A stretch of 64,000 nt of DNA from a virus. A model generated the notes under the pieces. The model saw only the letters and a list, made by a program, of their open reading frames with translations, was not told where the DNA came from and did not search any database. The translations under genes and the position numbers were made by a program. Positions 43,315 to 64,000 of this stretch are shown here, one piece after another (the stretch's first letter is position 1; every line of letters starts with the position of its first letter). Where the stretch lies: UHGV virus genome UHGV-0279745; one strand, given 5' to 3'.

Positions 43315-44221
43315 TTGCCGCCCCTCTATTACGCCCTGCCATCACCACACGACGAATATATTCGTACGCCTCTACACCGATAGAGAAGGCCAGTTGGTTA
43401 CATCCCGATTCCAGAACGTTAGGTGCATTCTGGAGTTGGTGCTCACCACCGTCTGCATTAATCCAAAGACTTTCGCTGCAAACGTTACACCCTTCTTCAA
43501 ACACTTTACTTACTGTAAAGCCGCATTCACGACTATTTACTACATTCAGTCGTTCAATGTTATCCTGAACCTGATAGTAGCCGTAAATAAAGTTCATGAC
43601 GTGGTCGGGCGATAAAGGTTTTGGCATTTTCGCATCTAAGAGTAACGTCATTGCACGGAAACCGTAATGGTAAATCGCGCTGTGCAGCTGAATAATATCT
43701 TCGTGCCAGCGTTTGTCCCCTAAACGGTCCCGTGTCAGGACACCCCAAGTCTGGACATTATCCAGCTCGTAGATCGTTTCCAGTGCTTCGTAACAGCCTT
43801 CGTCAATAAAGCGCATAAACGGGCGCTCAGACGACTTAAACCCATCGATGCTAACGTAGACATTGTCAAACTGTTTTAGCAACGGGAGATGCGATTTACG
43901 CATCTTTAAGCCATTGGTATACAACTGGTGTTTGAGTTCTGGACGAATCACTTTTAATTCGTCAACAAACGCCTCAATTTTACGGGTTGCCAGTAATGGC
44001 TCACCACCCGTCCACTGAATTTCGGTAATGGTTGGATTAGCTTCCAACGCTTCCAAAATTCGTTCACGTTGAAACTCTCGCGGAGAATCTTCACGATTCA
44101 TGTAATAGGCTCCACCGCAGAAGCTACAATCCAGGTTGCACTTGGACGTAGCGACTACGGACAATACGGTGGGTTTATCGTATAAACGATTCGATAACCT
44201 TGGTTCTGCATTGGTTGTCAT
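43298..44221 (-). CDS. radical SAM enzyme (second, shorter; twitch-like C-terminal Cys)
   Basis: CNLDCSFC (CxxxCxxC), GGEPLL motif, C-terminal C-x14-C-x2-C...C; 3' end overlaps the next rSAM start by 17 nt. Confidence 0.85.
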   Translation of the reverse strand: MTTNAEPRLSNRLYDKPTVLSVVATSKCNLDCSFCGGAYYMNREDSPREFQRERILEALEANPTITEIQWTGGEPLLATRKIEAFVDELKVIRPELKHQLYTNGLKMRKSHLPLLKQFDNVYVSIDGFKSSERPFMRFIDEGCYEALETIYELDNVQTWGVLTRDRLGDKRWHEDIIQLHSAIYHYGFRAMTLLLDAKMPKPLSPDHVMNFIYGYYQVQDNIERLNVVNSRECGFTVSKVFEEGCNVCSESLWINADGGEHQLQNAPNVLESGCNQLAFSIGVEAYEYIRRVVMAGRNRGAANESSK

Positions 44222-50600: not shown

Positions 50601-52784
50601 CGCCACGGCATAAGCAGAGTTATTTACCGTGGAACGAAGAAGATAAACGTGGTCGTCAACTAACACAACATCGTCGGCTTCTGGCCAAGGATTCCAGGTT
50701 TGTTCCACAGTACCGCTGGGGTTGCCATTACGGTACTTAGGCATTGTAACACGACACACCACCGTGTGTTTACTGTGGTCCATCGAACCATTGAACAACA
50801 CCAAATAACGGTTATTGTCAGAACCCAGACAAATAATCGCTTCCTGACCACCGATCAATATCGCTTTTAAGGTCACCCCAGGGTATTTACTCATCCCAAC
50901 AGGATGGTATTTCACCGAAGTTTGCTGAGGGTTCACAAACACATTCGACGTATTGATATCAGCATAGCCGTAGTAAATAGCCTCTGTACCAGGTACACCA
51001 TTAGAAGCATTACGTAACGAATAAACTTTACCTTGTTGGAATCCTACAACGCCTTTCTGATAGGACTGGTTCTTTGTAAAACCTGAATAATTACCGAGCG
51101 CCGGAATGGGTAAGAAGTTTTTGTTACCGAACTTCGCCCCACCGACAGTCCACGCAGGTAAGATGGTATTCAGTTTATCAGAAACTTTCTTGATCTCTTT
51201 TGCGAACAACCACCCTTGACGCGAAGTGGCAGCTTTATCGTTCGTGGTATCAATCGCATCCCACAACTGTAAGATACCATCCACAGTCGCACTGCCAATC
51301 GGGACATTATCCAAATCGGCGGTAGTGTGCGTGTGCTCCTTCACACTTTTATTTTTCAGCACATTCGCTAACGCTTTTGTTACCGGTTTAGCGATCGGCA
51401 TGGTGTTATCCATCTTATCGATACCGAAATCGGTTTTCGTTAAGGTTAACACCATTTTATCGCCCGTCTTAACAAACCCTTTACCGTTAACCGTATAGTC
51501 ATCGTCAACGTACAGGTCCAAGCGGTCTTTTAATTCGGTCACCGCCTTTTGGGAAATAGCAGTGCCTAGTGCTACGGATGTTGCGATATTCGTAATCGAA
51601 AACACCCCATAAACCGACTCGGTTGCTGTGGGAATATTCGCGTTCAACGTTAGCGGATTAGACTGCTTCGCCGTACCGTACGGTTTTACGCTGTCTGATG
51701 GTTTGAAATAGGCATTCGCTTCAAGTAACGTTACAGACGTCAGGTACATGTTCACCATTTCTGGTGTAACCAAATACACAGAGTTGTAAACCGGCGCTAA
51801 TACATCCTGCTCTGACCCAGAGTGTACCCAAAGCGTATTCAGTCCCGCACTAAATTCAACCGCTAAACCCGATTCGTTGTTGTCCTGGTCCGCTTTAATC
51901 ACTAACGGTTGCGGTGAGGTAATTAACCACTTATCACCACGGATACTGATAATGTGCCCGCCTGCGGTTTTAAACGTCAGTTCGTTACCGTTCGTGCTCC
52001 CCCATCGACCGTAAACAGTGCCGAGGGCTTCACCCATTAACTGATCAACGTCTGACTGCTCAATACCCGCCGAACCCATCAGCGTAGCCAACTCGTCAAT
52101 CGTCAGTCCAAACGCTTTTGTCGCGTCAACAGCACGTCCCAAAACCGGAAGGGCACCAACGTCAGTGGTCGTATACTGGTGTGCGTTAGGATTAAGGTGG
52201 TGTTGGTATAACTCCTCGTCGAAAACCTTTTTACCGTTCTCGTAAATCAGGTTAGTGACTTCGGTAAACGCTGCATCTAACTCTGTTGAACGTTGAACGA
52301 TTTTCTTACGGATGTCGTTTAACGCTTTAACAACCTCATCCCTCAGAATAGCTTCTTCTAAGTTAGCAGGAGGATCGATGGGTTGAATAACTGGCGCATA
52401 CGCCATTAACTCTGACCAGTCCACGTTACGTGGGTCTTTCAGGTCAGTACGAACTAAGAACTTTCCGATTTCAGATTGCGGTACACGATACTGGCGTGCT
52501 ACCCCTAAAATCTCATATTCGATTTCTGTTGCGGTCAGCAACATGAACCCGCCGTAGATCTGATCTTGCTCAGCTTCTGCGAGTTCTTTAAAGTAATAGC
52601 CTAAATAGTAGTCCAACCCCTCAATCAGAGTACGACGTCCGTTAGGCGCGGTATCGTCGGCTACTGTGAGTTTTAATCCGATACGATAAAAAGGTCCTTC
52701 AGGCGGAATGACCACATTAAATCGGTTAGGGTACGTCGCTGTGCTTAACGTACCGTTAAACTGCGCCGCGTCTTCTCTCGGCAT
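47601..52784 (-). CDS. giant virion fibre/spike-like protein (1727 aa)
   Basis: N-terminal domain (PPEGPFYRIGLKLTV...GLDYYLGYYF) shared with neighbouring fibre proteins; AGGAG SD. Confidence 0.75.
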   Translation of the reverse strand: MPREDAAQFNGTLSTATYPNRFNVVIPPEGPFYRIGLKLTVADDTAPNGRRTLIEGLDYYLGYYFKELAEAEQDQIYGGFMLLTATEIEYEILGVARQYRVPQSEIGKFLVRTDLKDPRNVDWSELMAYAPVIQPIDPPANLEEAILRDEVVKALNDIRKKIVQRSTELDAAFTEVTNLIYENGKKVFDEELYQHHLNPNAHQYTTTDVGALPVLGRAVDATKAFGLTIDELATLMGSAGIEQSDVDQLMGEALGTVYGRWGSTNGNELTFKTAGGHIISIRGDKWLITSPQPLVIKADQDNNESGLAVEFSAGLNTLWVHSGSEQDVLAPVYNSVYLVTPEMVNMYLTSVTLLEANAYFKPSDSVKPYGTAKQSNPLTLNANIPTATESVYGVFSITNIATSVALGTAISQKAVTELKDRLDLYVDDDYTVNGKGFVKTGDKMVLTLTKTDFGIDKMDNTMPIAKPVTKALANVLKNKSVKEHTHTTADLDNVPIGSATVDGILQLWDAIDTTNDKAATSRQGWLFAKEIKKVSDKLNTILPAWTVGGAKFGNKNFLPIPALGNYSGFTKNQSYQKGVVGFQQGKVYSLRNASNGVPGTEAIYYGYADINTSNVFVNPQQTSVKYHPVGMSKYPGVTLKAILIGGQEAIICLGSDNNRYLVLFNGSMDHSKHTVVCRVTMPKYRNGNPSGTVEQTWNPWPEADDVVLVDDHVYLLRSTVNNSAYAVAAWRLRKADLTNNTELEFERVTLTGEMGQFGDNLCLRIGQKTEESQTGQFFTYYPPEARAKWTIGHSFVHGPECSHACAVRDSVIRVNHVPTVWFAAADGSTINFRQWSTSFTIDTLTGRVTLEGAERFPIKVDTTTLTFADGSTVETSRKWGGGQANNRCFATYAKPNVSGMMLSCWQINDADQMPNVTIKSTQGKEFFDYLRYDNPNNTSGEATFTWDKGRGSIYTIGLSHPVGIGGSNKVWLSNPRNRYTIEVEVDPSKPYDVPGYSGYGPNNNRREVDATLYEQLSCMAACMTPEERHGQLNGWYLTKAETFPYRNIYGNFALSSERLTLEEADRQKMIRMIVDGAPSGQANGYANERISAAHQSGNALFALWLLGINTVCEFDLLQVSCMKTLSNGRRVLDIYYFMVSPTKENGYLRFNSATFKLVDWFLDLDYGLSYQSLREEAGNKTRRVGQPIFASADGVNFGLWLPYTLTIRNIGDLNALGYAAKYTFNPGSGWTRVPGKSQLRQMAPAHNPESGCYMGAGNWDKMARIFSKADRVFCSGNAYTVEEFVNDTTFSTAGQAVIIAGVETAEGWILYLTEEVRLDFGSNSYTLPTWSVDLSNEFPENHANQTFYVHAALVGSKAQYRIGLEKLPDTTSRLFVGTVTTDKKRIVAINIDKVKRLGRVRELEEHAAVRDQHDVAAAYDRKTGPLQTLVNQPLKAPTASASNGAGYVDGQRWNALSGITTRPNLPIQETYAGYKSIGRVAYENCADQFWQKAVAANVVAATASENSQAATANMKWLGAYTKPTTGTNAYLALSLRVRVPGNPGTANRRLKIRLAAPTGITQVRYGLNQSGGTMTEQTVTLTANSYLEKEHAGFKPAEEVRVHATFVIPKNEYDSYRTKFGAVQLIDVETNTVIKQTDIDTPFIVYTDTELSAQSGLVYKAVKGQFHQLPAQPVVIVTDGQTGTTPPVKTSFADGTLTVYVATTYDAVNPAQTRDIDKLQFNLMFTS

Positions 52785-52878
52785 CGTAAAGACTCCTACT
52801 TTTAAATAAAATGGATACCCCTCCCCGTTACAGGGAGGGGTTACCTACGGACACACAACTGCCCGCAGGCAGCCTGTC

Positions 52879-55800
52879 CTAAGTACGATCCCCTAACTGC
52901 TTCCCGTTAAGTTCTCGTTTCAGTACAGCCAAAATCCACTTCCACGCTTTACTCGTGATGTGGTACGGATTGCGTTTCTCCATTAAGAACTGACTTTCGC
53001 CGCTACGGAGTTCGAAGCTCTGCGCATTGAGTTGGTCTTGGCGAACACCTTTCTCGTCAGTGACATCTAACGAACAGGTAAAGTTAAGCTCGTAGCCTTC
53101 AGGATTATTACCCGGTGGTTCTAAGACAATATAAATGTCCTGCCCTACACGTAGGTCCTTTGGCGTAAGGGTAACTGCTTTACCTGTGTCCGCGCTGGTC
53201 GAAAGCGCAAACGGCACGCTATCGATAGCTGATACATACGCGTCCTTCCCAGCATCACCGATAATCACCTTACCCGGCCAGTTACACTTCACCGTTCCTG
53301 TCACTTTTGCAACACGGTACTGCTGTTTATCAGCACCTTGTGCAAAGCGTAAAATGAGTTTATGCCGATACCGGTTTGCGGCAGCTTTGGATGTACTCCA
53401 CTCATTGTTCCAGGATGCATGAAGTTCACCTTTCTTGGCCATCAAAGCACCACGAGACAGCTTACGTGGGAAGAATTGTGCCGGAAGTTGCCCTTCGTGG
53501 GAAATCGCTACACTCCCTTGTCCGGTTGGAAGTGCTATTGTTTCCGTAGGGCAATAATTTAACTCGTACACGTGTGTTGTAGGATCGATCAATTTCTGAT
53601 AGTAATCGCCGTCCTTACTGTCCGCTAACCAACCAACGGAAGAGTCCGTATACGATTCAAACAGTGAACGTAAATAGTGATACTTATCGATATCGATGTT
53701 ACCCGTTTTTGGATCGATCAGGGCATGGTTAATAGTGAGGAAACACTTCTCACTCAAACCATTAAACGCCAGCCCCACTCCGTCGCCGGTAAAATAGTCT
53801 ACCAGGTCAAATGGAAGCGTCATTTCTATTTGTCGCAAGTTGATAGTCGTTGAACCAAACTGCGAAAAAGATAGCGCTAAACGAAGTACACGAGTATTAA
53901 CATTATAACGATAACGAATCATCCCACGCGGCGCATGGTTCGCGGAGATCTTATCACCGTTTGGACCCCACCCAATTAAATCGAGTATTTCGGCGTTTGC
54001 TACTTCACCATTAAACAAAACGTCTTTAGTCGTGATTTCAACTGACGTTTCCCTTCCGGCATCCATCAACATCGAACCGTTATTCAACTCGAAGCTCTTG
54101 TGCCAAACTTCAGAAGTCGAACCAGCACCTACACCCACCTTACAAGTTTTACTAGTAAGGTTAATACGCACATAACGGCGTCCCACTGTACCACCCTGCG
54201 AGCTTGCGCACAAAATAAGATCAGGTGCCGCAGACAGTGCCTTGGTCCCTCCAATGTCATCAACATCGAAAACGAATGAGCCTTCGAACGTTGGTGCGTT
54301 ATTTTCCTTCGGGTTAAATGGCGTGAACCAACAATAAGGCGTCGCGCCCTCGGTTGAGAAAATCAACTCTAAGTCAGATTTAACATTTAATCCGTGGGAA
54401 TAAGAAAAGAGACCGCGACTTAAGGTACAAAGCGTTCCACCGCTTCCGCTACCTAAGGTTTTTCGATATATTAAAGCGCGGGGTTCAGCAATAGCACGGT
54501 TTAATAACGGCAACCGTGGGTTATCCGTTAACGTCCAGTCGACAGAACTGAGTCCGTGTGCTTTACGAGCGTCGATGTGCTCACTAACCTCGGTACTTTT
54601 CCCGAAATCAAACGTAGTTTCAAAACTCACGGTTTTATTCGAGTAAGATTCACCGGCAACAATATCAACGTAGCCGATATAACCGCGCTCAGGGTCAACT
54701 GCAATACTCTGAATTGGCTCAGTACGCGAATACAGAGAGCCTGTGAGCATGTTAACGTACAGATAATGACGAATGCCTACGTGTGTTGTAACGAACTCTT
54801 GGAGAAGCTCTACGTGCGTTTCAGGGCCACTGAAATAAACGGGGTAGTCACCGTCGTAAATTTCGAATTGCACCGCTGCGGATTTAGCCGTGTCGCTACA
54901 CTCAGCTTTAACCGCCACGGTGTAGTTTTCAACGTCTGCTGATGTTTCATACACTGCAACGAGCGGAGACTGGCCTGTGGCTGCCTGGATACCGTTAATG
55001 TAAACTGTAACCGGGCCACCCCCTGCGGCATAAACCCAAAGCTTCGGCTGGCGTGCTCTTACCCGCGTTTTGGCCAACACAGTAACAACTGACTGGTCAC
55101 CCATCTGTGAGGCAGTTTTACCTACCGGAACAGATTGGAAACCCATTAGTGGTGGTTCTTCAATACCTGTCCAGTTAATGCCCTTACCAGCACTCACTTT
55201 CCCCGTAGGCCAAGTCGTCTCAATTTGGTTGTTCGGTGAGAACCAGTTAAACATCGGCGTAGTTTGCAGGTCAATCGAACCTGTAACGGCGCTATCAGCT
55301 TTCGCACCGTTCAGCAAATAGAAATACTTCAAATCTTGAACGGAGATTGCCGTACCCTGACTATTAAAACGCCAGTCTGCACCTTTTACCGCAGCAAAAT
55401 CCGTTACCGACCCTTCTTTCGCGTTTGCAATCGCCGCAGCAACCACATCTAAACGCGCCGAAAGTTCTTTTAAGATGTTCGGTACCACTGCACGGTTTTC
55501 AACCAAACCGTTCTGGTTAGTTGCGTAACGACCGATACCGTAAACGGATTGCGAGGCTTTATAAATGCCTAGTTCCGACCAATCGTGATGGTGACCCGCA
55601 TCCGCTAAGCCGCTAAGCGCCGCATTTAACTCGGTAGACAACGGCTTGTCAACGTCTGCGGTGTTATCCGCTTGCCCTAACCCCAGATCAGCTTTCGTGA
55701 TTGTCCTGGAGCCGTCGTTCATCGGCTTACCGTTAATCATGGTCGTTTTAGCCACATACCCCGATAGGTCAGTCGAGTATGGTGCTAACGACGCCGGTGT

Positions 55801-57081
55801 TGCAGCAACCCCAGTCGTTTCTGTACCTTTACCTGTTTTAAGTTTAGCGACGCCTTTTTCGGCGGTTGTCGCTTTTGTTGGGTCGATAGTCCCGACAATG
55901 GGATCGGCGCGAGAACCTTTACCGGTAAAGCTAATCCCATTACGACCTTCAATGTACACCTTCGAATCGTCAGGGTCGCCACCGCCACCAGAACCCGCAT
56001 CTGGATCTTGTTGGTATTCCATCAACGCCGTGGTAGTCAGTAACGGGTTACCGTTCAGGGTGAGTTTGTTCATCCCTAAAGCATCGCCTGTTGACTCGAT
56101 GCGTAATGTGTTTTTACCGGCACGCCAATTAATGTAACGTCCTGCACCTGTGCCTTCCAGATGTCCTACCGCTAATACCACAGAACCGTTGGATTTTAAC
56201 GTAAAACCATCGTTAGCAAAAATGATTTCGGACTCACCGTTTTTCGAACGGAACTGTGCGCGGTTTCCTGACAGCGTACAGTTAAACACGCCCCGTACTT
56301 CCGAAGAAATCCAGTGAGAGATATACGTGTCGATAACTGACTGGGGTAAACGAAACGCTTTCAGCTCATCCGTCAGTGCTTTCAACTTTAACCCGTAGGC
56401 CATAAAGGTGTCGGGCGTTTTCAAGTTAACAGGATGCGCGTTAATCTGCGCGGATGTGGTTTCGTGCGGGTTCTTCGCTGCGATATGTGCTGGGTAGTTA
56501 AATGCTTCGATTTCTTTACCCAACGCAGTCACTAACGCTTTAACTTCAGCTAATTTGTCTTTAATTAGCTGGTTAGCGTCGTCGGTTTTCAATTCAATAT
56601 CGTGAACTGCCGACGCTAAATATTTTTTGTTCAGCAAATCCGCCCAGGACGTTGCTGCTGGCGTCGCTGGATATAACGATGGTCTACCGTCTAATAACAA
56701 CCAGTCAGCACTGACTGGGTTATTCAAATATTTCACCAGTTCATCGAGAATATCAACAAACGGGTCGTAGAACGTACCGCCGAGCATTTGTCCTTCAAAG
56801 GTTACGATACCCTTGATGGATGGGTTGATAAGGTGTACCCCACAATACACGTTGGCTGCTACCGAGTCATCCAGTTCCGTCAGCTGATATTGCAGTTCGT
56901 AGTCCACCCCACGACTCAGTGGGGTGGTTGAACCTGGTTGTCTGACGACCAAATCTTCAAAGAACGGGCGGTGGTCTAAAATCACCACCCGATCGTTGTT
57001 ATTTTCTGACCCGATGATACGCTCCTCTAAGAAGTGATTCTCGGCTTTCGTCCCCCGAGGATCGTAAGGATACGCTTTCAT
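52879..57081 (-). CDS. tail fibre protein (~1400 aa)
   Basis: Shared N-terminal domain; typical tail-fibre motifs (AEKGVAKLKT; TKADLGLGQADNTADVDKPLS); ATG 57081 preferred over TTG 57084. Confidence 0.8.
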   Translation of the reverse strand: MKAYPYDPRGTKAENHFLEERIIGSENNNDRVVILDHRPFFEDLVVRQPGSTTPLSRGVDYELQYQLTELDDSVAANVYCGVHLINPSIKGIVTFEGQMLGGTFYDPFVDILDELVKYLNNPVSADWLLLDGRPSLYPATPAATSWADLLNKKYLASAVHDIELKTDDANQLIKDKLAEVKALVTALGKEIEAFNYPAHIAAKNPHETTSAQINAHPVNLKTPDTFMAYGLKLKALTDELKAFRLPQSVIDTYISHWISSEVRGVFNCTLSGNRAQFRSKNGESEIIFANDGFTLKSNGSVVLAVGHLEGTGAGRYINWRAGKNTLRIESTGDALGMNKLTLNGNPLLTTTALMEYQQDPDAGSGGGGDPDDSKVYIEGRNGISFTGKGSRADPIVGTIDPTKATTAEKGVAKLKTGKGTETTGVAATPASLAPYSTDLSGYVAKTTMINGKPMNDGSRTITKADLGLGQADNTADVDKPLSTELNAALSGLADAGHHHDWSELGIYKASQSVYGIGRYATNQNGLVENRAVVPNILKELSARLDVVAAAIANAKEGSVTDFAAVKGADWRFNSQGTAISVQDLKYFYLLNGAKADSAVTGSIDLQTTPMFNWFSPNNQIETTWPTGKVSAGKGINWTGIEEPPLMGFQSVPVGKTASQMGDQSVVTVLAKTRVRARQPKLWVYAAGGGPVTVYINGIQAATGQSPLVAVYETSADVENYTVAVKAECSDTAKSAAVQFEIYDGDYPVYFSGPETHVELLQEFVTTHVGIRHYLYVNMLTGSLYSRTEPIQSIAVDPERGYIGYVDIVAGESYSNKTVSFETTFDFGKSTEVSEHIDARKAHGLSSVDWTLTDNPRLPLLNRAIAEPRALIYRKTLGSGSGGTLCTLSRGLFSYSHGLNVKSDLELIFSTEGATPYCWFTPFNPKENNAPTFEGSFVFDVDDIGGTKALSAAPDLILCASSQGGTVGRRYVRINLTSKTCKVGVGAGSTSEVWHKSFELNNGSMLMDAGRETSVEITTKDVLFNGEVANAEILDLIGWGPNGDKISANHAPRGMIRYRYNVNTRVLRLALSFSQFGSTTINLRQIEMTLPFDLVDYFTGDGVGLAFNGLSEKCFLTINHALIDPKTGNIDIDKYHYLRSLFESYTDSSVGWLADSKDGDYYQKLIDPTTHVYELNYCPTETIALPTGQGSVAISHEGQLPAQFFPRKLSRGALMAKKGELHASWNNEWSTSKAAANRYRHKLILRFAQGADKQQYRVAKVTGTVKCNWPGKVIIGDAGKDAYVSAIDSVPFALSTSADTGKAVTLTPKDLRVGQDIYIVLEPPGNNPEGYELNFTCSLDVTDEKGVRQDQLNAQSFELRSGESQFLMEKRNPYHITSKAWKWILAVLKRELNGKQLGDRT

Positions 57082-57094
57082 CAAAAAATTCTCC

Positions 57095-60000
57095 TTAATC
57101 GCGAATGATTACCGCCTGCACTTTATTGTTGGTGTCGATAAACGACATTACGCGCTCCTTGTTAAGATAAGGAGGTATCGGTAACGCAGCGTAATCCGCC
57201 AGGTTGTTATTAAATTCAGTTGCCACTAACGCATTAAGCGTTTCGGGGTCTGAACTGACACCGGTCAATTCCATAACGCGCACACGATTTAATGAGGAAT
57301 AGTTGCTAATATAGTCTAACAACGTACCATAGACTTTATTCGCGGTTGCGCTGTCTGCCGTAGAACGGATGTTGGCACGAACCTCATCCTCATAAAGTCC
57401 CCCTAAACCGTAGTAAATAGGGGTATACGGATCGTTAACGATAGGTGCGATATTGAACCCTGTTAGACGGTCAGTTAGAGGGATTTTCTGCGTAGCTCCC
57501 CCTGCTGCCGTGCAACTTACGTATTTATCAGTCGCAGATAAAAACACCACGATGGTATACGTAGTGCCCGCTAAGGTCAATGTTGCGTTAAACGTTATTG
57601 CGTTATTTGCAGCACGGGTGTGGGTAAACGTTACGTCAGGTTGTAACGTATTCCACGGTGCAGGCGTAACACGCTTCGTTGGTGTGAAACCTAACACTAC
57701 CGATTTCCCGCTACCGAAGTTCAAACCGAACCCTGCGTAACAATATTCACCGTTGCTGTCAGTTAAACGATAACCACGAGTGATAAGTAACGACAACCGC
57801 ATAAACTCGCCGTCGGTGTTTTTCCAACAACCTAAAACAGTTTCTAGCACCGTGCCGGTTTTTGCGTTGCTTTCTGTTTCCCAACTGACTCGCATTCCTG
57901 CGTTCTTAAAAGCTGGGAACATGTTGTGGATAAACCCGTGTAGGTTATCGCTTACCCCTTTCGCGTCAAAAATCCACTTGGATGCGAGCTGGTCGTATTT
58001 CACCCCGTCTAAAGCTTTATACTGCCCACCGGCAACATAACGCCAATCTGCTTCACCGCGTACTACTGCCTGGAGTCCAGAAGCCCAGCAAGGCGCGCCT
58101 ACCGTTAAGTTAGCTAACCCAAGCGCTGCACGTGACGCGGAGCGCTGAATGTGTGCGTTGTCATCGGCTTTATGATCTTTCAGTTCACGGAAATCACCCA
58201 ACCGTGTGACATTACGCATTTCCGTAACGAACACCTCAGAAATGTCGTTAACACCAATCAACCCTACACGCGTCATGGTATCCGTTTCAGCCTGACTGTA
58301 GCTGTCGTGGACAATATACTTCGCTTTGTTGTCAACGATGTCAACAAAAATCCCTGCGTAGATTTCTGTATTCAATTTCGGAAAACGTTCACTGACGTTA
58401 ATCGTCATCAACGGAACGTCGTACGTTTCACCACCGATAAAATACGTTGAAGCTGGAAGCGTGACCAGAATTTTGTCTTTGACCGTAAGGTCTATTAAGT
58501 CGTTACCAGACTCACCAAAACGTATAATGTCAAGACGTGCCTCCGAGTCAACGCCGCCGACAGCGCGCTCCAATTTTTCAATCTGGGAAGTCTGCGCCAT
58601 TACCACACTCCCATCGAGTGCTAAAGTCGCATCATCCACATCCAGACCAAATTTAATCAGACCACGTTGCGCTGTGGTTGCGTTCCCAGTACCAAAAGCG
58701 GTAAACGGGTGTTGGTGAACTTTAGGCGAGTATTTATCTAACTCCGCACGTTGTGCTGTAGAAATCGGTAAATCAACATCAGGCGTATTCGCAACATTAC
58801 CTAAACCAAAGGTAATCTTATCGATAGTGACCGAGCTGGTAAGTTGCATGTCGTTAATGTACGATTTAACTGCAACTAACTTACCGGTGAACTCAGCATC
58901 GAGTTTTTTAATCAGTGCTGGCGTTGCTGCAAGGTTTTCAGCGGTACCGAACTCATCGGTCAACTGCCAAGCTGCCAGAGCTGTTGTATCAGTCGCGGTA
59001 GGGAGAATAAAGGTCGCTACGAACGGCGAGGCTTTTATCCCGCTACCGGTGATCGTAACCGTTGTTGTCGAGTTTGCGTAGAATAAACCTGTACCACCTG
59101 CGGTATTGCCTGGTAGATACGGGGCCACGGTGGTGGGGTCTAAAAGTTTTTTACCACGCCACAACAATCCTCGGTCATCAGGGTATAGCACAAGCTGGTT
59201 AGTACCTGCTTGGAACGTTACGGGGTTGTTACCCACGTTAACATCAGTTGAACCTTGGCCAATAAACTTGATGGATTTCGGATCAACGACAAACTGAGCG
59301 CCTAAACGTGTCTCGTCAACAACATCCGGTGCTTTCTTAATGGTAACCGTGTTACCTTTGTTTTGCGAACTAATGGTAACGGCGTCGGCAACATTATTGA
59401 TCAGCGATTTAAAGTGGTGCTGATTCTCTAATGCTTCTAACGCGGCGTCCATGTTATTGAAGTTAATCCGACCGCTATACGTTTTACTGTTTACGGTAAT
59501 AACGACGTCAAACACATTCCCTGTACGCTTCAGTTGAAAACGTAGCGCAAAATCCCCATCCGGTATTGCCGGATTAGGAGCTTGCGAAATATACCGAACT
59601 GCCGGTACCGGACTACCGTAACCGTGCAACGCCAGTTCGATAGTAAGAGTACCGGACCAGACTTCACCGCTAATCTCTACGTACTTACCGGAGTTACTAC
59701 CAGGATTTTCGTAGAAACGTAAACCAACCCTACCGACCGCTTCATTACCAGACGCTGTTTTACGTCCAGTAACAATAAAGTCAATATCTTGCAGGTTGGC
59801 AGGCACCGCATTAAAGTTAGCACTGAAACCGCTTTTCGCTCCTGTATAACGAAGCGCACCGTGATATCTGTGACCACTACTAACATAGCTTTCGCTAAAA
59901 TAAGGACTCACGTATTTCGACATCGAGACCGGATCAACTTCCGTCGTGAACGAAGTAAAACCCGGAAGTGTGGTAATCGTGCCGTTAACGTTCTTGCTCG

Positions 60001-61417
60001 CCGATTCACGAAGCAGTTTTTTCTGTGCGGTTAACGTTGCTTGTGTTGGGTACTTAGCATTAACGTAATCCGTTAACTGCTGTTTCGTTTTCCCGTAAGC
60101 TAACGCGGCATCCGACGCAATACCATTCAGTTCTAACGCACGGATCGGACCCCACGTATCGGTGTGCGGGTTGTCCTTACGTGTAACGTGTTCGTGTGCA
60201 GGCGCGTTACGATACAGCTGCTCAACTAACTGATGGTATTTAACTATTAACTGGTAAACATCGTTATCGACGTCAGGTTCTGGTGCGCCGGGTAAAGAAC
60301 GAATTTGAATATAATCGTTTTCGGCCGCATACCAGTTTAGATTAATGTTCGTTTTAAACTTCAACCATTTAGCAACATCCGTTTTCGAATACCCTGCCGA
60401 GAACTCATCAGGCGGCGTATCGACATTGAATGTGTAATCCATGGTCTGTTTATTTGTTTTTACTACGATGACGTAAACACCGTTTCCGGGTTGACGGGTT
60501 ACACTAAAATCGATATCGTTTTTTAACTCATCGTCAGTTAAACCGTTGATTAACGTATAATCGTAGTTTGTTGAACCGCTACCAATAGCGACCGTTAAGA
60601 CCAGTGAGATTTTGCGCTGTTTTAGCTGCAACCGTAGAATGCTTGCCCCGCCGTTAGCATAACAGAGCATCCAATCGATCTGTTCGTTTGGATTCAATTT
60701 CGTCATGTCTGGCAGAATAGCAGGAATTCTGTGTTTCACTGACAGGGCGTAGTCGTTAAAGGTTGCAGTTTTATAACTCAAGCTATAACGATGACGGGTA
60801 GTGTTGTAGGTGAAGCCACCTTTATTGTCGTATACGGCATACTGCTCGGAAGTGATAACCTTGCTATTAGCACGGTATTCTAAATCCAGGGTATTACGCG
60901 CGATGGGGTTAAGCCGACTCACGACTTCCCCTAACGAATCGCCTAATCCAGCAATAGCCTGCATTAATTCCAGTTCACCTTTCCAATTCTCCCAATCGAA
61001 CTGGATATCGACCGGCGGAAAGTAAACGTCCCCGATGACGGTGTCCCACTGACACGCAGACGGGTATTTATCTTTATTGAGTTCGCGTTCTGCGGTAATC
61101 TGTTGTTGGGTAGCCTGACCACAACCAACGGCGTGGTAATCTACCGTGAAATTCGATTTGTATTTGTCGTTAACAATCCAAATCATCCCGTGAATGAGAT
61201 AGGCTGTGCGCAACATACCGGTCTCGTACGGGTGTGTAATAACGTAATCGTCGCCTAAGGTCAGTGTTTTGCCGCCGCTCTTGACCACCAGGGATGTGGT
61301 GAAAAAAGGGGCGTGGGCAGGTACCAACATTCGGTATTTCGTACCAATGACGGCGACCGCTTCACCGGTTATTTTATTCCCCGGTTTTTTGAAGTGTGGG
61401 TCTAGGACGACAGCCAT
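57095..61417 (-). CDS. tail fibre protein (1440 aa)
   Basis: Shared N-terminal domain; tail-fibre motif ITFGLGNVANTPDVDLPIS; AGGAG SD; first gene of the minus-strand operon. Confidence 0.8.
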   Translation of the reverse strand: MAVVLDPHFKKPGNKITGEAVAVIGTKYRMLVPAHAPFFTTSLVVKSGGKTLTLGDDYVITHPYETGMLRTAYLIHGMIWIVNDKYKSNFTVDYHAVGCGQATQQQITAERELNKDKYPSACQWDTVIGDVYFPPVDIQFDWENWKGELELMQAIAGLGDSLGEVVSRLNPIARNTLDLEYRANSKVITSEQYAVYDNKGGFTYNTTRHRYSLSYKTATFNDYALSVKHRIPAILPDMTKLNPNEQIDWMLCYANGGASILRLQLKQRKISLVLTVAIGSGSTNYDYTLINGLTDDELKNDIDFSVTRQPGNGVYVIVVKTNKQTMDYTFNVDTPPDEFSAGYSKTDVAKWLKFKTNINLNWYAAENDYIQIRSLPGAPEPDVDNDVYQLIVKYHQLVEQLYRNAPAHEHVTRKDNPHTDTWGPIRALELNGIASDAALAYGKTKQQLTDYVNAKYPTQATLTAQKKLLRESASKNVNGTITTLPGFTSFTTEVDPVSMSKYVSPYFSESYVSSGHRYHGALRYTGAKSGFSANFNAVPANLQDIDFIVTGRKTASGNEAVGRVGLRFYENPGSNSGKYVEISGEVWSGTLTIELALHGYGSPVPAVRYISQAPNPAIPDGDFALRFQLKRTGNVFDVVITVNSKTYSGRINFNNMDAALEALENQHHFKSLINNVADAVTISSQNKGNTVTIKKAPDVVDETRLGAQFVVDPKSIKFIGQGSTDVNVGNNPVTFQAGTNQLVLYPDDRGLLWRGKKLLDPTTVAPYLPGNTAGGTGLFYANSTTTVTITGSGIKASPFVATFILPTATDTTALAAWQLTDEFGTAENLAATPALIKKLDAEFTGKLVAVKSYINDMQLTSSVTIDKITFGLGNVANTPDVDLPISTAQRAELDKYSPKVHQHPFTAFGTGNATTAQRGLIKFGLDVDDATLALDGSVVMAQTSQIEKLERAVGGVDSEARLDIIRFGESGNDLIDLTVKDKILVTLPASTYFIGGETYDVPLMTINVSERFPKLNTEIYAGIFVDIVDNKAKYIVHDSYSQAETDTMTRVGLIGVNDISEVFVTEMRNVTRLGDFRELKDHKADDNAHIQRSASRAALGLANLTVGAPCWASGLQAVVRGEADWRYVAGGQYKALDGVKYDQLASKWIFDAKGVSDNLHGFIHNMFPAFKNAGMRVSWETESNAKTGTVLETVLGCWKNTDGEFMRLSLLITRGYRLTDSNGEYCYAGFGLNFGSGKSVVLGFTPTKRVTPAPWNTLQPDVTFTHTRAANNAITFNATLTLAGTTYTIVVFLSATDKYVSCTAAGGATQKIPLTDRLTGFNIAPIVNDPYTPIYYGLGGLYEDEVRANIRSTADSATANKVYGTLLDYISNYSSLNRVRVMELTGVSSDPETLNALVATEFNNNLADYAALPIPPYLNKERVMSFIDTNNKVQAVIIRD

Positions 61418-61485: not shown

Positions 61486-62748
61486 GTGACTACTGCTTAT
61501 CAAGTGCGGCCCGACAGCGCTTTTGGCTTCTCTCGAGAGTCCCGTACCTGGGGAGCCATCGATGTCACGCAACCCTTAAATACGTTGTGTTCAGACTACC
61601 ACACCTTTGAGATCGGTTTAAGTGCACTTGGTAAAGACTATACGTTAGTCAGCCAATACCATCTTGCCGAACTACAAAACCGAACAGACACTTTACAAGA
61701 TTGGTTAAATGAAAAAGCCGGAAACGTCATCCCTACTCTAAAAGCCGGATTGCCGAAACTCGAATTCGGTTGGGCACATTACCAATCGATTAATGCCGAC
61801 GTACCCGTTGAAACATATCTGTGTCCGTCTGGGTACCACCACAGTCAAGATTTCAGCTTAGATGATGCTGATGACGTTGTCATCGTTTGTGAGGACAAGT
61901 GGAAGGACAAATACCGTAATAGTGTACTGTACAACATTAACGGTCAATGGGTACCGCACCAGACAGATACCGTAGGTGTCCGATTACCCGGGGCCGGTAA
62001 AATCGTACGGAGAGCCTGTACGCCAGATATCGGCTGTATGGTTTTTGGTCAGTTAGGGAATGTTAAAACTTACCCCATTGCCAACCTTACCCTAAACAAG
62101 CTCGACACTACACGTGACTATTACTCCACGTTAATGATTTCGCTACCTGAGTCTATTACGGGAAAAACGGTGGGTTTCGTCATCGGTGGACTGTTACGTT
62201 GGTTACCTCCTGGCGGTTATTTCTCCGACCGTGCGATCATGATTTCTTTACCGAATTTTGATCTTGCGCGGACCGTTCTGGAAACCCGTCGCTATTACGA
62301 CTGGGACGCCATCGGTGTAGGGGATTTATCAACGCCTACTAATGTCCAACGCATTCGCAACCCCGAAACATTAAAGGCGCTTTTACTCCACGAGTCTTCG
62401 TTTATCTTTACGGTAGATAATCCGTATTTAGAAGAAGAGGTTGTGGGTGTATCGCATAACGCAGTTTGGGGACGTTGTTATCTCAAGGACCCTAGCGATC
62501 CTGATTCTGAAAAACCATTAGGGTACTTAAATAATCGCTTCGGAAAGACGGTGGGCTATTGGCCTACATGGGAGGAGGGTGAGTGGGTATTTAACACCAC
62601 CGAATTCGACAGTCAAAACTACGTCTTTCGTGAAGCCCGGTGGTATAATCAGAAGAAGATTAACGACGCGCAAGCAATCGTCGGTCCATTCGGTCCCTGG
62701 GAAAAAGTGTATTTAGAAATGCATCGCTTTAGAGCACGAAAAAAATAA
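61486..62748 (+). CDS. hypothetical protein (possibly virion-associated)
   Basis: 420-aa ORF with GTG start after GAGGAAAAGAG; divergent from the fibre operon; bidirectional terminator follows. Confidence 0.55.
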   Translation: MTTAYQVRPDSAFGFSRESRTWGAIDVTQPLNTLCSDYHTFEIGLSALGKDYTLVSQYHLAELQNRTDTLQDWLNEKAGNVIPTLKAGLPKLEFGWAHYQSINADVPVETYLCPSGYHHSQDFSLDDADDVVIVCEDKWKDKYRNSVLYNINGQWVPHQTDTVGVRLPGAGKIVRRACTPDIGCMVFGQLGNVKTYPIANLTLNKLDTTRDYYSTLMISLPESITGKTVGFVIGGLLRWLPPGGYFSDRAIMISLPNFDLARTVLETRRYYDWDAIGVGDLSTPTNVQRIRNPETLKALLLHESSFIFTVDNPYLEEEVVGVSHNAVWGRCYLKDPSDPDSEKPLGYLNNRFGKTVGYWPTWEEGEWVFNTTEFDSQNYVFREARWYNQKKINDAQAIVGPFGPWEKVYLEMHRFRARKK

Positions 62749-62797
62749 AGTAACCTCCTACCCTCTAAGAGGGTAGGAGTAGCACGTTTTTTTTTCG
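62739..62797. terminator. bidirectional rho-independent terminator
   Basis: CTCCTACCCTC-taag-AGGGTAGGAG flanked by an A-run and T-run, between convergent genes. Confidence 0.8.
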
Positions 62798-62798
62798 C

Positions 62799-63026
62799 TT
62801 AGTCTTTTTTGTAGACAATTGCGTTACCGTGCAGTTTGTTGTTGCCGGAAATACCGATAACTTTGAATGCGTCGCCGCCAATTTTTTCAGCTTCAGCAGC
62901 CAGCTTACCCGTTACATGATCAACGGTGTCGCCGAAAGCGCTAACGTTACCGATTTTCTTAAACTCTTCTGGAATATGCTCAGCAGAAGAGAACTCTTTA
63001 ATAGACATAACAGCTCTCCATTTCAA
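62799..63026 (-). CDS. DUF1471-like (YdgH/BhsA/McbA-type) small protein, no signal peptide
   Basis: KKIGNVSAFGDTVDHVTGKLAAEAEKIGGDAFKVIGISG...NAIVYKK matches the DUF1471 pattern as recalled. Confidence 0.5.
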   Translation of the reverse strand: MKWRAVMSIKEFSSAEHIPEEFKKIGNVSAFGDTVDHVTGKLAAEAEKIGGDAFKVIGISGNNKLHGNAIVYKKD

Positions 63027-63214
63027 AAGGAAGGTGGTCTAAGACCGACGTGTGTTACAACCGAAGCATAAGATAGCTCCTCCCCGTAGGGAGGAGTAGA
63101 GTGCGCGAAAAAAGTGGCCTGCTTAACTAAACGATGGGTTTAAGAAAAGTGTTGATAAAAAGCTTTACCAACGTCAGGTCACAATATATAAACACAACGT
63201 AAGAAAAAGGGGAA

Positions 63215-64000
63215 TTATTGCGGAGGTGATGTCGGACCATGTTTACCTTGGTGAATGTGAACGCTAAAGGTAATACCGGAAATAATGGCATCTTTAACCG
63301 TAAAGACACCCACACCTTCACCCGTACCACCGTATTTGAAGTTCTTAGCGATTTCCAAATTACCGGTGAACATCGCTTCCTTCCCTTCTTGTTTAAAGTT
63401 CGGCGTTTTGAACGTTGTCGAACTGCCCGCTTCTGTTAACCAGGTTTGTGTTTTAAACGTAACGGAATTCGCTGCTTCCGTATTGCGGACTTCGCATTTT
63501 TCATTAATCGTTTTCGTTTCCAGGTTAATAGAACGCTTTGAATAAATGAACGCATCTTCTTTGTTGATGTTCACTTTTGAAAGCATCGCATTCTCAAACC
63601 CGAGATCATCTTCAACCGAGTTAATGTAATACTTATTCCCTTTGTGGTCAACACACTGCCACGTGCCATTTGCATTATCAAACTGAAATAACCACGCCGC
63701 TTTCTCACCGTTCACCATACTTGTTCTTAGCGTGATATGTTTGTCAATCGTCGAGATATTCAACACATACGCATTGGACAGGTCATCCGCCATCTGGTTT
63801 TCAGAATCAGCAGACCACGCGTAAACCGCATCCTCTAATCGCTTAACGTTAGCAAAGTTCAGATCAATCCAAAAATAAATATCGGTTTTCCCCAAACGTA
63901 ACAAGATAACGTAATCTTCTCGTTTAACGTCAGGGGAATTAATTCGGTTGGAGTTAAACTTCCACCACTTTGCTGTTATCGTGTTACCCGTCTTAATGGT
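63215..64000 (-). CDS. hypothetical protein (5' partial; frame open to window edge)
   Basis: The minus-strand frame of the 63215-63904 ORF stays open upstream to base 64000; the TTG at 63904 is probably internal. Confidence 0.45.
   Translation of the reverse strand, partial: TIKTGNTITAKWWKFNSNRINSPDVKREDYVILLRLGKTDIYFWIDLNFANVKRLEDAVYAWSADSENQMADDLSNAYVLNISTIDKHITLRTSMVNGEKAAWLFQFDNANGTWQCVDHKGNKYYINSVEDDLGFENAMLSKVNINKEDAFIYSKRSINLETKTINEKCEVRNTEAANSVTFKTQTWLTEAGSSTTFKTPNFKQEGKEAMFTGNLEIAKNFKYGGTGEGVGVFTVKDAIISGITFSVHIHQGKHGPTSPPQ

What the first reader, a model, noticed from the sequence alone, without database searches (positions are those of the whole stretch)
62799..63026. DUF1471-like (YdgH/BhsA/McbA family) small protein encoded by a phage and lacking a signal peptide
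The 75-aa product matches my recollection of the enterobacterial DUF1471 stress/biofilm domain (KIG.VSA.G......LA.KA...GA.......SG.N...G.A..YK). Host versions are periplasmic; this copy has no signal peptide, which is unusual and suggests a host-derived gene repurposed inside the cell.
Basis: partly seen in the sequence, partly recalled or inferred. Interest (0 to 1): 0.45.

Follow-up and report, generated by a model that had tools for sequence, protein, structure and literature searches.

The report
Jumbo-phage DUF1471 protein without signal peptide
A giant phage of enterobacteria carries a small copy of a bacterial cell-envelope stress-protein domain (DUF1471) that has lost its export signal; the gene is real and kept by every relative in its clade, but it is already annotated in related phages and its function is still unknown.

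Summary
Window 62799-63008 (- strand) encodes a 69-aa protein; the true start is the ATG at 63008, not the TTG at 63026. It matches Pfam PF07338 above threshold, folds like solved DUF1471 domains and has no signal peptide. Bacterial relatives almost all have one.

It is the orthologue of Salmonella jumbo phage SPN3US gp172 (PHROG 8068). RefSeq already labels that protein "DUF1471 domain-containing protein".

The gene sits between a baseplate/fibre gene (gp171 homologue) and a baseplate assembly gene (gp173 homologue) in all 62 sequenced phage records of this clade. More distant relatives (Goslar, pVa-21) lack it at the same junction.

It forms its own unit: upstream hairpin, an invariant TATG (the phiKZ late-promoter motif), Shine-Dalgarno site, ORF, bidirectional terminator. 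Within-type dN/dS is 0.05-0.13.

New here: two allele types, about 43% identical, are distributed against the phylogeny of the flanking genes, so the cassette is probably exchanged between genera.

Published mass spectrometry shows gp172 is made and co-purifies with some virion preparations but not with the most purified ones. "Repurposed inside the cell" is therefore unproven.

My best guess (about 40%) is a late, non-exported binding module acting at the particle/cell-envelope interface. This is a new member of a known kind, of modest interest.

The parts
62799..63008 (-). CDS of 69 aa plus stop codon: a single DUF1471 (PF07338) domain with no signal peptide. Orthologue of SPN3US gp172 / PHROG 8068, allele type A.
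   Evidence: dN/dS 0.05-0.13 in unsaturated comparisons. AF2 pLDDT 84.
63014..63019 (-). Shine-Dalgarno sequence GGAGAG, 5 nt before the ATG at 63008.
   Evidence: Read directly from the sequence. The equivalent TGGAGA/GAGGA sits at the same place in orthologues.
63067..63070 (-). Invariant TATG (TATGC in 9 of 10 sequences), 59 nt upstream of the ATG. Candidate late promoter and start site for the phage non-virion RNA polymerase, with G at 63067 as the predicted +1.
   Evidence: One of only a few scattered invariant positions (nine columns) in an alignment of 10 upstream regions from the sampled genera. The phiKZ late promoter is 5'-TATG-3' with G as +1 (PMC4666361). This is inference only: TATG is not enriched in the window's intergenic DNA (24 observed, 18.6 expected).
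63036..63046 (-). Short palindrome GGTCTTAGACC in the 5' UTR. Relatives have AGAC-N5-GTCT at the same place.
   Evidence: It is removed by a 21-nt deletion in the near-identical metagenome contig L004, so it is dispensable. The UTR fold is not better than shuffles (z +1.2).
63077..63096 (-). GC-rich hairpin CTCCTCCC-TACG-GGGAGGAG between the gp173 homologue and the DUF1471 gene. Probably the terminator of the upstream gene; it insulates the cassette.
   Evidence: -17.2 kcal/mol, z -4.8. A hairpin followed by a T-run is at the same place in most relatives.
63105..63118 (-). Conserved 14-nt element GCCACTTTTTTCGC, specific to this locus. Role unknown.
   Evidence: It is the only exact copy in the window. 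The core CCACTTTTTTC occurs exactly once in each 40-kb locus of SPAsTU, Huxley and SPN3US, always at this site.
62755..62779 (.). Bidirectional intrinsic terminator: an 11-bp stem flanked by an A-run and a T-run. It is shared by the convergent gp171-homologue and DUF1471 genes.
   Evidence: -25.1 kcal/mol on the - strand (z -5.5) and -20.3 kcal/mol on the + strand (z -4.2). Conserved in relatives.
61486..62748 (+). Context: homologue of SPN3US gp171 (420 aa, PHROG 3337). gp171 is an essential tail/baseplate-fibre protein and the counterpart of phiKZ ORF130.
   Evidence: PMC5105663.
63215..64000 (-). Context: 3' part of the gp173 homologue (baseplate assembly protein, PHROG 3216). It is cut off by the end of the window.
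   Evidence: The full-length copy on L004 (3654-4619) matches PHROG 3216 at E 9e-114.

Best explanation
The gene encodes a 7-kDa, non-enzymatic, single-domain DUF1471 protein. An ancestor of the SPN3US-like (nucleus-forming, Chimalliviridae-type) jumbo phages captured it from an enterobacterial host, and it lost its Sec signal peptide.

It sits as a self-contained cassette at the convergent junction between two baseplate genes: upstream hairpin, candidate TATG late promoter, Shine-Dalgarno site, ORF, bidirectional terminator. It is made late in the cytoplasm and is not exported.

Proposed mechanism (inferred, not shown): it reaches the cell envelope, where every characterised DUF1471 protein works, by a phage-provided route instead of Sec. 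It would either attach loosely to the tail/baseplate periphery or leave the cell with the particles at lysis. There it would act as a small binding module at the particle/outer-membrane interface.

The two sharply different allele types are swapped between genera independently of the surrounding structural genes. This suggests the partner is a variable factor outside the local tail module, most likely a host factor.

Shown: domain identity, absence of a signal peptide, universal retention, purifying selection, the insertion site, allele discordance, and that the orthologue is expressed.

Inferred: late timing, virion or envelope location, and a binding function.
For: Identity and lack of a signal peptide.

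Orthology and conserved synteny (gp170 / gp171 / DUF1471 / gp173) across Seoulvirus, Erskinevirus, Machinavirus, Wellingtonvirus and Derbicusvirus.

Retention: present in all 62 records that carry a close gp171 homologue.

Insertion: absent from the same junction in Goslar and pVa-21, where the gp171 and gp173 homologues are directly convergent.

Selection and age: dN/dS 0.05-0.13. GC 42.9% against 44.9% for the window, consistent with an old, ameliorated acquisition.

Cassette anatomy: strong flanking hairpins and an invariant TATG in otherwise divergent upstream DNA, matching the phiKZ late promoter (PMC4666361).

Expression and particle association of SPN3US gp172:
- 4 unique peptides, 81% coverage and 6 spectra in CsCl-purified wild-type virions, in which known non-virion proteins were not detected (PMC5694885).
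- 3 spectra in a second virion preparation, and a "Tail" label (PMC7411985).

Family biology: DUF1471 proteins are envelope proteins, and YdgH without its signal sequence fails to complement (PMC11705850).

Allele discordance:
- SPAsTU vs SNUABM_29: gp171 89%, gp173 82%, DUF1471 41%.
- Caitlin vs Huxley: 72%, 80%, 46%.
- Caitlin vs SPN3US: 65%, 61%, 78%.

No other gene or 60-aa window within +-20 kb follows this partition: 24 ortholog sets and 447 windows, best score +3 against +35 for gp172.
Against: Virion association is weak.
- In PMC7411985 Table S2, gp172 has 0 spectra in four gradient-purified preparations containing tails and prohead-like particles, three of which are rich in tail proteins (gp170 gives up to 262 spectra), and 0 in one tailed-virion preparation.
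- It has 2 spectra in tailless heads.
- Its highest count, 13, is in a crude pellet containing cell debris.
- It is absent from every table held from the deeper 2023 dataset, PMC10052503.
- The original authors themselves question its status.

No structure, interaction or phenotype exists for any member.

The TATG promoter is assigned by analogy only, and TATG is not enriched in the window's intergenic DNA.

Monophyly of the phage sequences has only 28% NJ bootstrap support on 55 columns.

Nothing here shows that the protein ever contacts the envelope.
Confidence: 0.4

Rival explanations
1. Cytoplasmic function. The signal-peptide-less domain works inside the infected cell, for example as a small assembly chaperone or adaptor for baseplate or fibre proteins encoded around it, or as a host-takeover factor. 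On this view its traces in virion preparations are carry-over.
For: With no signal peptide the protein must accumulate in the cytoplasm.

The mass-spectrometry signal falls as purification gets more stringent:
- crude pellet: 13 spectra;
- CsCl step only: 6 and 3;
- step plus buoyant-density gradient: 0, 2, 0, 0, 0;
- not listed in 2023.

The gene lies inside the baseplate/fibre cluster, next to the essential gene 171.

Small chaperone genes commonly sit beside fibre genes (general phage knowledge).
Against: No neighbouring structural protein or domain co-varies with the two allele types. That is not what a dedicated chaperone of a variable fibre would show. A chaperone of a conserved partner should evolve congruently with that partner, yet the cassette is discordant with all 24 neighbouring genes.

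The ancestral family has no known cytoplasmic activity, and YdgH is inactive there.

In the wild-type virion sample, known non-virion proteins were not detected but gp172 was.

There is no PADLOC match.
Confidence: 0.3
2. Integral, stoichiometric structural component of the baseplate or tail, as implied by the published "Tail" label.
For: "Tail" designation in PMC7411985 Table S2.

Spectral count per unit mass is 0.86 in wild-type virions, close to the 12-copy portal at 0.93 (1.29 on its processed mass).

Universal retention and a position between baseplate genes.
Against: Zero spectra in three tail-rich purified preparations where gp171, gp173 and gp170 are abundant, and absence from the 2023 wild-type triplicates.

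Core structural genes gp171 and gp173 exist across phiKZ-like phages without this protein.

Allele swapping without any co-varying structural partner.

No phage virion chain appears among the PDB fold matches.
Confidence: 0.12
3. Functionless hitch-hiker, or an over-called ORF: a decaying remnant of a captured host gene.
For: Small size, no assigned function, and a low and erratic mass-spectrometry signal.
Against: dN/dS is 0.05-0.13. The ORF is intact and 67-73 aa long in all 62 records across deep divergence, down to 44% identity in gp171. Regulatory anatomy is conserved. Peptides cover 81% of the SPN3US protein.
Confidence: 0.02

Closest known systems
SPN3US gp172 (SPN3US_0172 / YP_009153466.1, "DUF1471 domain-containing protein"); PHROG 8068
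   Same: Orthologue. Same length (69 aa) and the same position between the gp171 and gp173 homologues on the same strand. No signal peptide. Full-length PHROG match at E 4.5e-32.
   Different: Only 44-45% identical. The window protein belongs to allele type A, along with SPAsTU (80%), phiEaH2 and Huxley. SPN3US carries type B. The mass-spectrometry data exist only for the type-B SPN3US protein.
BhsA/YcfR (NCBIfam NF047859), the enterobacterial multiple-stress-resistance outer-membrane protein
   Same: Best-scoring named bacterial subfamily for four of the five phage variants tested; the type-B SPN3US protein scores marginally higher with McbA (40.9 vs 39.4 bits). Same single-domain DUF1471 architecture over the mature region.
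   Different: Scores are 39-60 bits against an equivalog cut-off of 90, so it is not BhsA. It has no signal peptide. It is acidic (pI 4.6-6.3) whereas bacterial mature domains have a median pI of 8.05. The GenBank labels "bhsA" and "multiple stress resistance protein" on phage orthologues are over-annotations.
Solved DUF1471 domains: YahO (2MA4/2NOC), SrfN (2MA8), STM0082 (2JNA), YdgH domains (2M2J, 4EVU)
   Same: Same compact alpha/beta fold, with TM-score 0.63-0.72 normalised to the query. The sequence match to YahO covers residues 9-68. The phage N-terminus corresponds to the start of the mature bacterial protein.
   Different: 18-24% identity to the structures. Those proteins are periplasmic or secreted.
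Phage morons (autonomous accessory cassettes inserted between conserved genes)
   Same: Inserted at a junction that is uninterrupted in related phages. Bounded by terminators and has its own candidate promoter. Host-derived.
   Different: It is not patchy or dispensable-looking: it is retained in every member of the clade. It belongs to a strictly lytic jumbo phage rather than a temperate one.
Canonical (signal-peptide-less) phage endolysins, as an analogy only
   Same: An envelope-directed protein made without a signal peptide, which could reach the periplasm only through phage-made lesions. This is general phage knowledge and an inference here.
   Different: No sequence or fold relationship and no enzymatic motif. 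Release through holin lesions has not been tested for this protein.

Membership tests
DUF1471 / YdgH_BhsA-like domain (Pfam PF07338) | Sequence match to the family profile above the curated gathering score | tested here: met
   38.2 bits against a cut-off of 27, E 1.4e-09, covering profile positions 2-55 of 55. Four orthologues score 43.5-68.1 bits.
DUF1471 / YdgH_BhsA-like domain (Pfam PF07338) | Compact alpha/beta DUF1471 fold | tested here: met
   AF2 pLDDT 84 with beta-beta-alpha-beta-beta topology. The top PDB matches are DUF1471 structures with probability 1.0 and TM-score 0.63-0.72.
DUF1471 / YdgH_BhsA-like domain (Pfam PF07338) | N-terminal Sec signal peptide and periplasmic or outer-membrane location (typical of the bacterial members) | tested here: not met
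   The N-terminus is hydrophilic and acidic, and no upstream extension could encode a signal peptide. Bacterial members have one (PMC11705850). This is a property of the bacterial proteins, not of the Pfam domain itself.
DUF1471 / YdgH_BhsA-like domain (Pfam PF07338) | Restriction to Enterobacterales | tested here: inconclusive
   The host of the window phage is unknown. All 60 phage records found with the gene come from phages of Salmonella, Erwinia, Escherichia, Cronobacter or Proteus. Relatives that infect Vibrio lack it.
BhsA equivalog (NCBIfam NF047859) | Score at or above the equivalog cut-off of 90 bits | tested here: not met
   46.8 bits for the window protein and 39.4-60.4 bits for orthologues.
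SPN3US gp172 orthologue group (PHROG 8068) | Full-length profile match and a length of about 67-73 aa | tested here: met
   Residues 1-69 against profile positions 1-70 of 70, E 4.5e-32.
SPN3US gp172 orthologue group (PHROG 8068) | Position between the gp171 and gp173 homologues, convergent with gp171 | tested here: met
Virion (tail) structural protein | Reproducible detection in purified particles | not testable with these tools
   The literature on the orthologue is inconsistent. It is present in two CsCl-step preparations and absent from double-gradient preparations and from the 2023 dataset.
Virion (tail) structural protein | Co-evolution with neighbouring structural partners | tested here: not met
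   None of 24 ortholog sets or 447 windows within +-20 kb follows the allele partition.
Moron-type accessory cassette | Insertion between genes that are adjacent in related phages, with its own terminators | tested here: met
   In Goslar and pVa-21 the gp171 and gp173 homologues are directly convergent with no ORF of this kind between them. Flanking hairpins fold at -17 and -25 kcal/mol.
Moron-type accessory cassette | Own promoter | tested here: inconclusive
   TATG is invariant 55-70 nt upstream in 10 phages and matches the phiKZ late-promoter consensus. The motif is not enriched in the window, and no transcript data are available.
Moron-type accessory cassette | Patchy, dispensable distribution | tested here: not met
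   Present in 62 of 62 clade records.

The most novel reading that the evidence does not exclude
A phage has taken a periplasmic/outer-membrane stress-protein domain, removed its Sec signal, and delivers it to the envelope by its own route. That route would be either riding on the baseplate or tail tip during infection, or flooding the periplasm through holin lesions at lysis, as a canonical endolysin does. In the envelope it would mimic or antagonise host DUF1471 proteins, or bind an outer-membrane component. The two alleles exchanged between genera would then track a polymorphic host envelope target. If true, the phage protein would be the first handle on the long-unknown molecular partner of the DUF1471 family.
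Probability: 0.15. Interest if true: 0.65.

Novelty: new member of a known kind. Interest (0 to 1): 0.33.

Why it matters
DUF1471 proteins (BhsA, McbA, YahO, YhcN, YdgH and others) are repeatedly implicated in stress, biofilm and antibiotic susceptibility in Enterobacterales, yet no molecular partner or activity is known (PMC11705850).

Here a whole clade of jumbo phages has kept a stripped-down, signal-less version under strong purifying selection, in two exchangeable allele types. That is an independent pointer that the domain binds something important at the phage-host interface.

SPN3US has an amber-mutant genetic system, which makes the question testable.

For annotation, the finding shows that the "BhsA / multiple stress resistance protein" labels on these phage genes are unjustified. 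It also shows that the "Tail" assignment of gp172 rests on thin, irreproducible spectral counts.

In itself the gene is an already catalogued family of unknown function (PHROG 8068; RefSeq label DUF1471), so the finding is ordinary at the level of "what is it".

Tried and rejected
1. TTG start at 63026 (75 aa). Rejected in favour of the ATG at 63008.
2. TATG or TATGC as a statistically supported promoter within the window. It is not enriched in intergenic DNA: 24 observed against 18.6 expected for TATG, and 6 against 4.7 for TATGC. I kept it only as a cross-genus conserved candidate.
3. GCCACTTTTTTCGC as a general promoter motif. Rejected: it is unique in the window and occurs once per 40-kb locus.
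4. A structured RNA in the intergenic regions. Rfam finds nothing in 62600-63400, and the 5' UTR fold is no better than shuffles.
5. A link to defence or anti-defence systems. There is no PADLOC match.
6. Apparent natural loss in Erwinia phage Caitlin, which is missing from the tblastn list. Rejected: Caitlin carries a type-B copy.
7. A partner domain that co-varies with the allele type in gp167-gp173 or anywhere within +-20 kb. None was found.
8. A robust phylogeny against bacterial DUF1471. The phage sequences form one clade in the NJ tree, but bootstrap support is only 28% on 55 columns, and no specific bacterial donor can be named. The NCBIfam ranking favours BhsA for four of five phage variants, with McbA marginally ahead for SPN3US type B.
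9. The SPN3US infection time-course proteome (Weintraub et al. 2019, J Virol), which could give the timing of gp172 synthesis. The paper is not held.
10. Other virion proteomes of this clade. None was found.
11. A fossil signal peptide upstream of the Kwan/Wellington ORF. The match is 12 weakly similar codons bounded by a stop codon, probably chance.
12. Signal-peptide-bearing DUF1471 genes in other phages. There are none among 50,697 records. A bacterial query hits only this clade, and only over the mature domain.

Full report
**Observation**

The ORF reported at 62799..63026 (- strand) exists. The ATG at 63008 is the more likely start. It has GGAGAG 5 nt upstream. Every orthologue begins MSIK, MSIR, MKEF or MQQF at the aligned position. 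The PHROG profile aligns residues 1-69 to positions 1-70 of 70. The product is 69 aa: MSIKEFSSAEHIPEEFKKIGNVSAFGDTVDHVTGKLAAEAEKIGGDAFKVIGISGNNKLHGNAIVYKKD.

It matches Pfam PF07338 (YdgH/BhsA/McbA-like) at 38.2 bits against a gathering score of 27, E 1.4e-09. NCBIfam ranks BhsA first (46.8 bits), then YbiJ, YahO, McbA and YhcN, all far below their equivalog cut-offs of 90-125 bits. It is a DUF1471 domain but not any named bacterial paralogue.

An AlphaFold2 model built on a 50-sequence alignment has pLDDT 84 and beta-beta-alpha-beta-beta topology. Its best PDB matches are the solved DUF1471 domains 2JNA, 2M2J, 4EVU and 2MA8. By sequence the nearest solved protein is Salmonella YahO, 2MA4/2NOC.

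**Absence of a signal peptide**

The N-terminus is hydrophilic and acidic. The only in-frame extension adds MKWRAV before a stop codon.

I ran an HMM search of 1.84 billion representative proteins with a profile of the phage proteins. It returned 91 hits at E <= 0.001. The four best are 68-78 aa and align from residue 1. Nearly all the rest are 80-90 aa with the domain starting near residue 30.

For the phage-type proteins, the highest 10-residue Kyte-Doolittle mean in the first 30 residues is <= 1.3. For the full-length bacterial ones it is about 1.8-3.1, and they show textbook signal peptides.

The literature states that DUF1471 proteins are confined to Enterobacterales and carry periplasmic signal sequences. 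It also reports that YdgH without its signal sequence does not complement (PMC11705850).

**What the window is, and what the gene is**

The window comes from an SPN3US-like jumbo phage, a relative of Seoulvirus and Erskinevirus. It has no close sequenced relative: the best megablast coverage is 15% at 73% identity. A near-identical contig exists in an ENA metagenome.

The protein is the orthologue of SPN3US gp172 (SPN3US_0172). RefSeq already calls that protein "DUF1471 domain-containing protein".

The gene order is: giant fibre-like protein (gp170) on the - strand, gp171 on +, DUF1471 on -, gp173 on -. This order is identical in Seoulvirus, Erskinevirus, Machinavirus, Wellingtonvirus and Derbicusvirus phages.
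- gp171 is an essential tail/baseplate-fibre gene homologous to phiKZ ORF130 (PMC5105663).
- gp173 matches the PHROG "baseplate assembly protein".

tblastn finds the DUF1471 gene in 60 phage records, one copy each. Close gp171 homologues occur in 62 records. The two extra records are both Erwinia phage Caitlin, which does carry a divergent copy. Every sequenced member of the clade therefore has the gene.

More distant phiKZ-like phages have gp171 and gp173 homologues but no DUF1471 gene. In Goslar the two genes are separated only by a terminator. In Vibrio phage pVa-21 the 318-bp gap has no such ORF.

A typical bacterial DUF1471 protein used as query hits only this clade among 50,697 phage records, and only over the mature domain.

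Together with a GC content matching the phage (42.9% against 44.9%), this indicates one old capture from an enterobacterial host at a convergent gene junction.

An NJ tree groups all signal-peptide-less phage sequences together, but with only 28% bootstrap support on 55 columns. The single-origin argument therefore rests mainly on synteny.

**Anatomy of the cassette**

Downstream, the 50 nt between the two convergent stop codons hold an 11-bp-stem hairpin flanked by A and T runs. It folds at -25.1 kcal/mol on the - strand and -20.3 kcal/mol on the + strand (z -5.5 and -4.2) and acts as a bidirectional intrinsic terminator.

Upstream, a GC hairpin at 63077-63096 (-17.2 kcal/mol, z -4.8) follows the gp173 homologue.

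I aligned the upstream regions of 10 phages from the sampled genera. The TATG at 63067-63070, 59 nt before the ATG, is among only nine scattered invariant columns, and it is followed by C in nine of the ten. In phiKZ the late promoters of the non-virion RNA polymerase have the consensus 5'-TATG-3' with G as the start site. [quoted passage not shown]

I therefore infer a late promoter, but this is analogy only. TATG is not enriched in the window's intergenic DNA, and no transcript data were available.

A 14-nt element, GCCACTTTTTTCGC (63105-63118), is conserved and occurs exactly once per 40-kb locus, always at this site. Its role is unexplained.

**The gene is functional**

Pairwise Nei-Gojobori dN/dS in unsaturated within-type comparisons:

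| Pair | dN/dS |
|---|---|
| window vs metagenome twin | 0.05 |
| window vs SPAsTU | 0.07 |
| SPAsTU vs phiEaH2 | 0.10 |
| CR5 vs Derbicus | 0.10 |
| SPN3US vs SNUABM_29 | 0.12 |

Residues conserved between phage and bacterial members are Gly, Ala, Leu and Asn core positions (G20, L36, A40, G44, G55, N57, G61, A63). This points to a retained fold and a binding role rather than catalysis.

**A new observation: two allele types that ignore the genome phylogeny**

Type A (KKIGNV...GISGNN...AIVYK) occurs in the window, SPAsTU, phiEaH2 and Huxley. Type B (VEAGTVQVSG...GGNNKMFGNA.YYV) occurs in SPN3US, SNUABM_29 and Caitlin. A and B are 41-49% identical. Within a type, identity across genera is 70-88%.

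The flanking genes tell a different story:

| Pair | gp171 | gp173 | DUF1471 |
|---|---|---|---|
| SPAsTU vs SNUABM_29 | 89% | 82% | 41% |
| Caitlin vs Huxley | 72% | 80% | 46% |
| Caitlin vs SPN3US | 65% | 61% | 78% |

At the nucleotide level the drop is confined to the ORF, especially its 5' half.

I compared +-20 kb around the gene in five genomes. All 24 ortholog sets follow the genome phylogeny. None of 447 sliding 60-aa windows, including the three giant fibre-like proteins, follows the A/B partition: the best score is +3 against +35 for the DUF1471 gene.

The cassette is thus exchanged between genera, or maintained as an old polymorphism, independently of the structural genes around it.

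**Experimental evidence from the literature (orthologue only)**

SPN3US gp172 was detected in CsCl-purified virions with 4 unique peptides, 6 spectra and 81% coverage. It was called the smallest virion protein and of unknown function. The authors noted that it was missing from one mutant's particles and that its status needed resolving (PMC5694885).

In PMC7411985 Table S2 it is labelled "Tail". Its spectral counts are:

| Preparation | Spectra |
|---|---|
| Wild type | 6 |
| am59-supD | 3 |
| Tailed am59-supF | 0 |
| Tailless heads (am59-supF) | 2 |
| Crude pellet with debris | 13 |
| Four preparations of tails plus proheads | 0 in each |

In three of the four tail-plus-prohead preparations, gp170, gp171 and gp173 are abundant.

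gp172 is not listed in any table held from the deeper 2023 study (PMC10052503).

The protein is therefore certainly expressed. Its association with particles is weak and falls with purification stringency. Loss of a 7-kDa protein from gels is an alternative explanation, one the authors raise themselves.

**Interpretation**

Securely established: a host-derived DUF1471 domain without a signal peptide; an autonomous cassette in the baseplate cluster; universal retention under purifying selection; allelic dimorphism with exchange between genera; and expression of the orthologue.

Not established: where it acts.

I favour (about 0.4) a late, non-exported binding module that reaches the envelope with or alongside the particle and works at the particle/outer-membrane interface. 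The reasons are:
- the whole family is envelope-located;
- virion or lysis-released proteins need no signal peptide;
- the gene is late-type and embedded among baseplate genes;
- it was seen in virion preparations that lacked known non-virion proteins;
- its allele pattern points to a variable external partner.

A dedicated chaperone role, however, is disfavoured by the lack of any co-varying partner.

An integral structural role (about 0.12) is disfavoured by the zero counts on purified tails and by the gene's absence from related phages that share the same baseplate genes.

A functionless remnant is effectively excluded.

**Comparison with what is known, and novelty**

The domain assignment is already in RefSeq and UniProt for relatives, and the family is PHROG 8068 ("unknown function"). 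No paper discusses it beyond "gp172, unknown function".

The window gene is a new member (a new type-A variant in an unsequenced lineage) of a known kind.

What this analysis adds: the signal-peptide contrast quantified against 1.84 billion proteins; the insertion site; the cassette anatomy; 62/62 retention; the allele discordance; the negative co-variation scan; a critical reading of the "Tail" label; and the point that the "BhsA" labels on phage orthologues are over-annotation.

Interest is modest, 0.33.

Noticed in passing
L007 4287-4847 (Erwinia phage Wellington gp189); also Kwan, L020 723 onward: Wellington and Kwan carry a second signal-peptide-less DUF1471 gene immediately downstream of the 73-aa one. 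It encodes 186 aa: an N-terminal DUF1471 domain (PF07338, 29.7 bits, residues 22-66) followed by a long acidic, low-complexity tail. It does not group reliably with the other phage copies in the NJ tree.
   Followed up: partly
window 63105-63118 (- strand): The 14-nt element GCCACTTTTTTCGC is conserved upstream of the cassette in type A, type B and Wellington phages. It is unique in the window and occurs exactly once per 40-kb locus, always at this site. It could be an operator, a recombination junction or a 3'-UTR element, but its role is unknown.
   Followed up: partly
window 63028-63048 compared with L004 (ENA metagenome contig): The near-identical metagenome relative has a 21-nt deletion in the 5' UTR that removes the small palindrome GGTCTTAGACC. 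That element is therefore dispensable.
   Followed up: no
whole window; 39001-64000 tested: The phage has no close relative among 50,697 phage records (best 15% coverage at 73% identity). It probably represents a new species or genus of SPN3US-like jumbo phages. Its host is unknown.
   Followed up: partly
window 47601-61417 (- strand): Three consecutive giant ORFs of 1727, 1401 and 1440 aa correspond to the SPN3US gp168-170 paralogue family of baseplate/tail-fibre candidates. They are the most divergent large genes in the region, at 37-68% identity among relatives.
   Followed up: partly
window about 41992-44221 (- strand): Two adjacent ORFs (440 and 307 aa) match genes annotated as radical SAM proteins in SPFM, SPN3US and Caitlin phages.
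   Followed up: no
L015 36235-36708 (SPAsTU, 157-aa ORF) and its orthologues: This is a second gene with partly discordant similarity. Caitlin is closer to SPN3US (71%) than to its genus-mate Huxley (52%), which may reflect another exchange between genera.
   Followed up: no
GenBank records MH221129 (SPAsTU), KX397369 (Kwan), KX397373 (Stratton), MH426724 (Wellington): Orthologues are annotated "bhsA" or "multiple stress resistance protein BhsA". They score 39-60 bits against the BhsA equivalog cut-off of 90 and lack the signal peptide, so these names are over-annotations.
   Followed up: yes
model mbffc12865100 against PDB: Besides DUF1471 structures, the model superposes well on the outer-membrane stress sensor RcsF (2Y1B, TM-score 0.84 normalised to the query) and on an entry deposited as the IgaA periplasmic domain (9BIY chain B, 0.82). 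Sequence identity is only 10-11% and E-values are weak. It could be a shared small alpha/beta fold or a distant relationship.
   Followed up: no
phage DUF1471 proteins compared with bacterial mature domains: The phage proteins are acidic (pI 4.6-6.3), whereas 56 bacterial mature domains have a median pI of 8.05.
   Followed up: no
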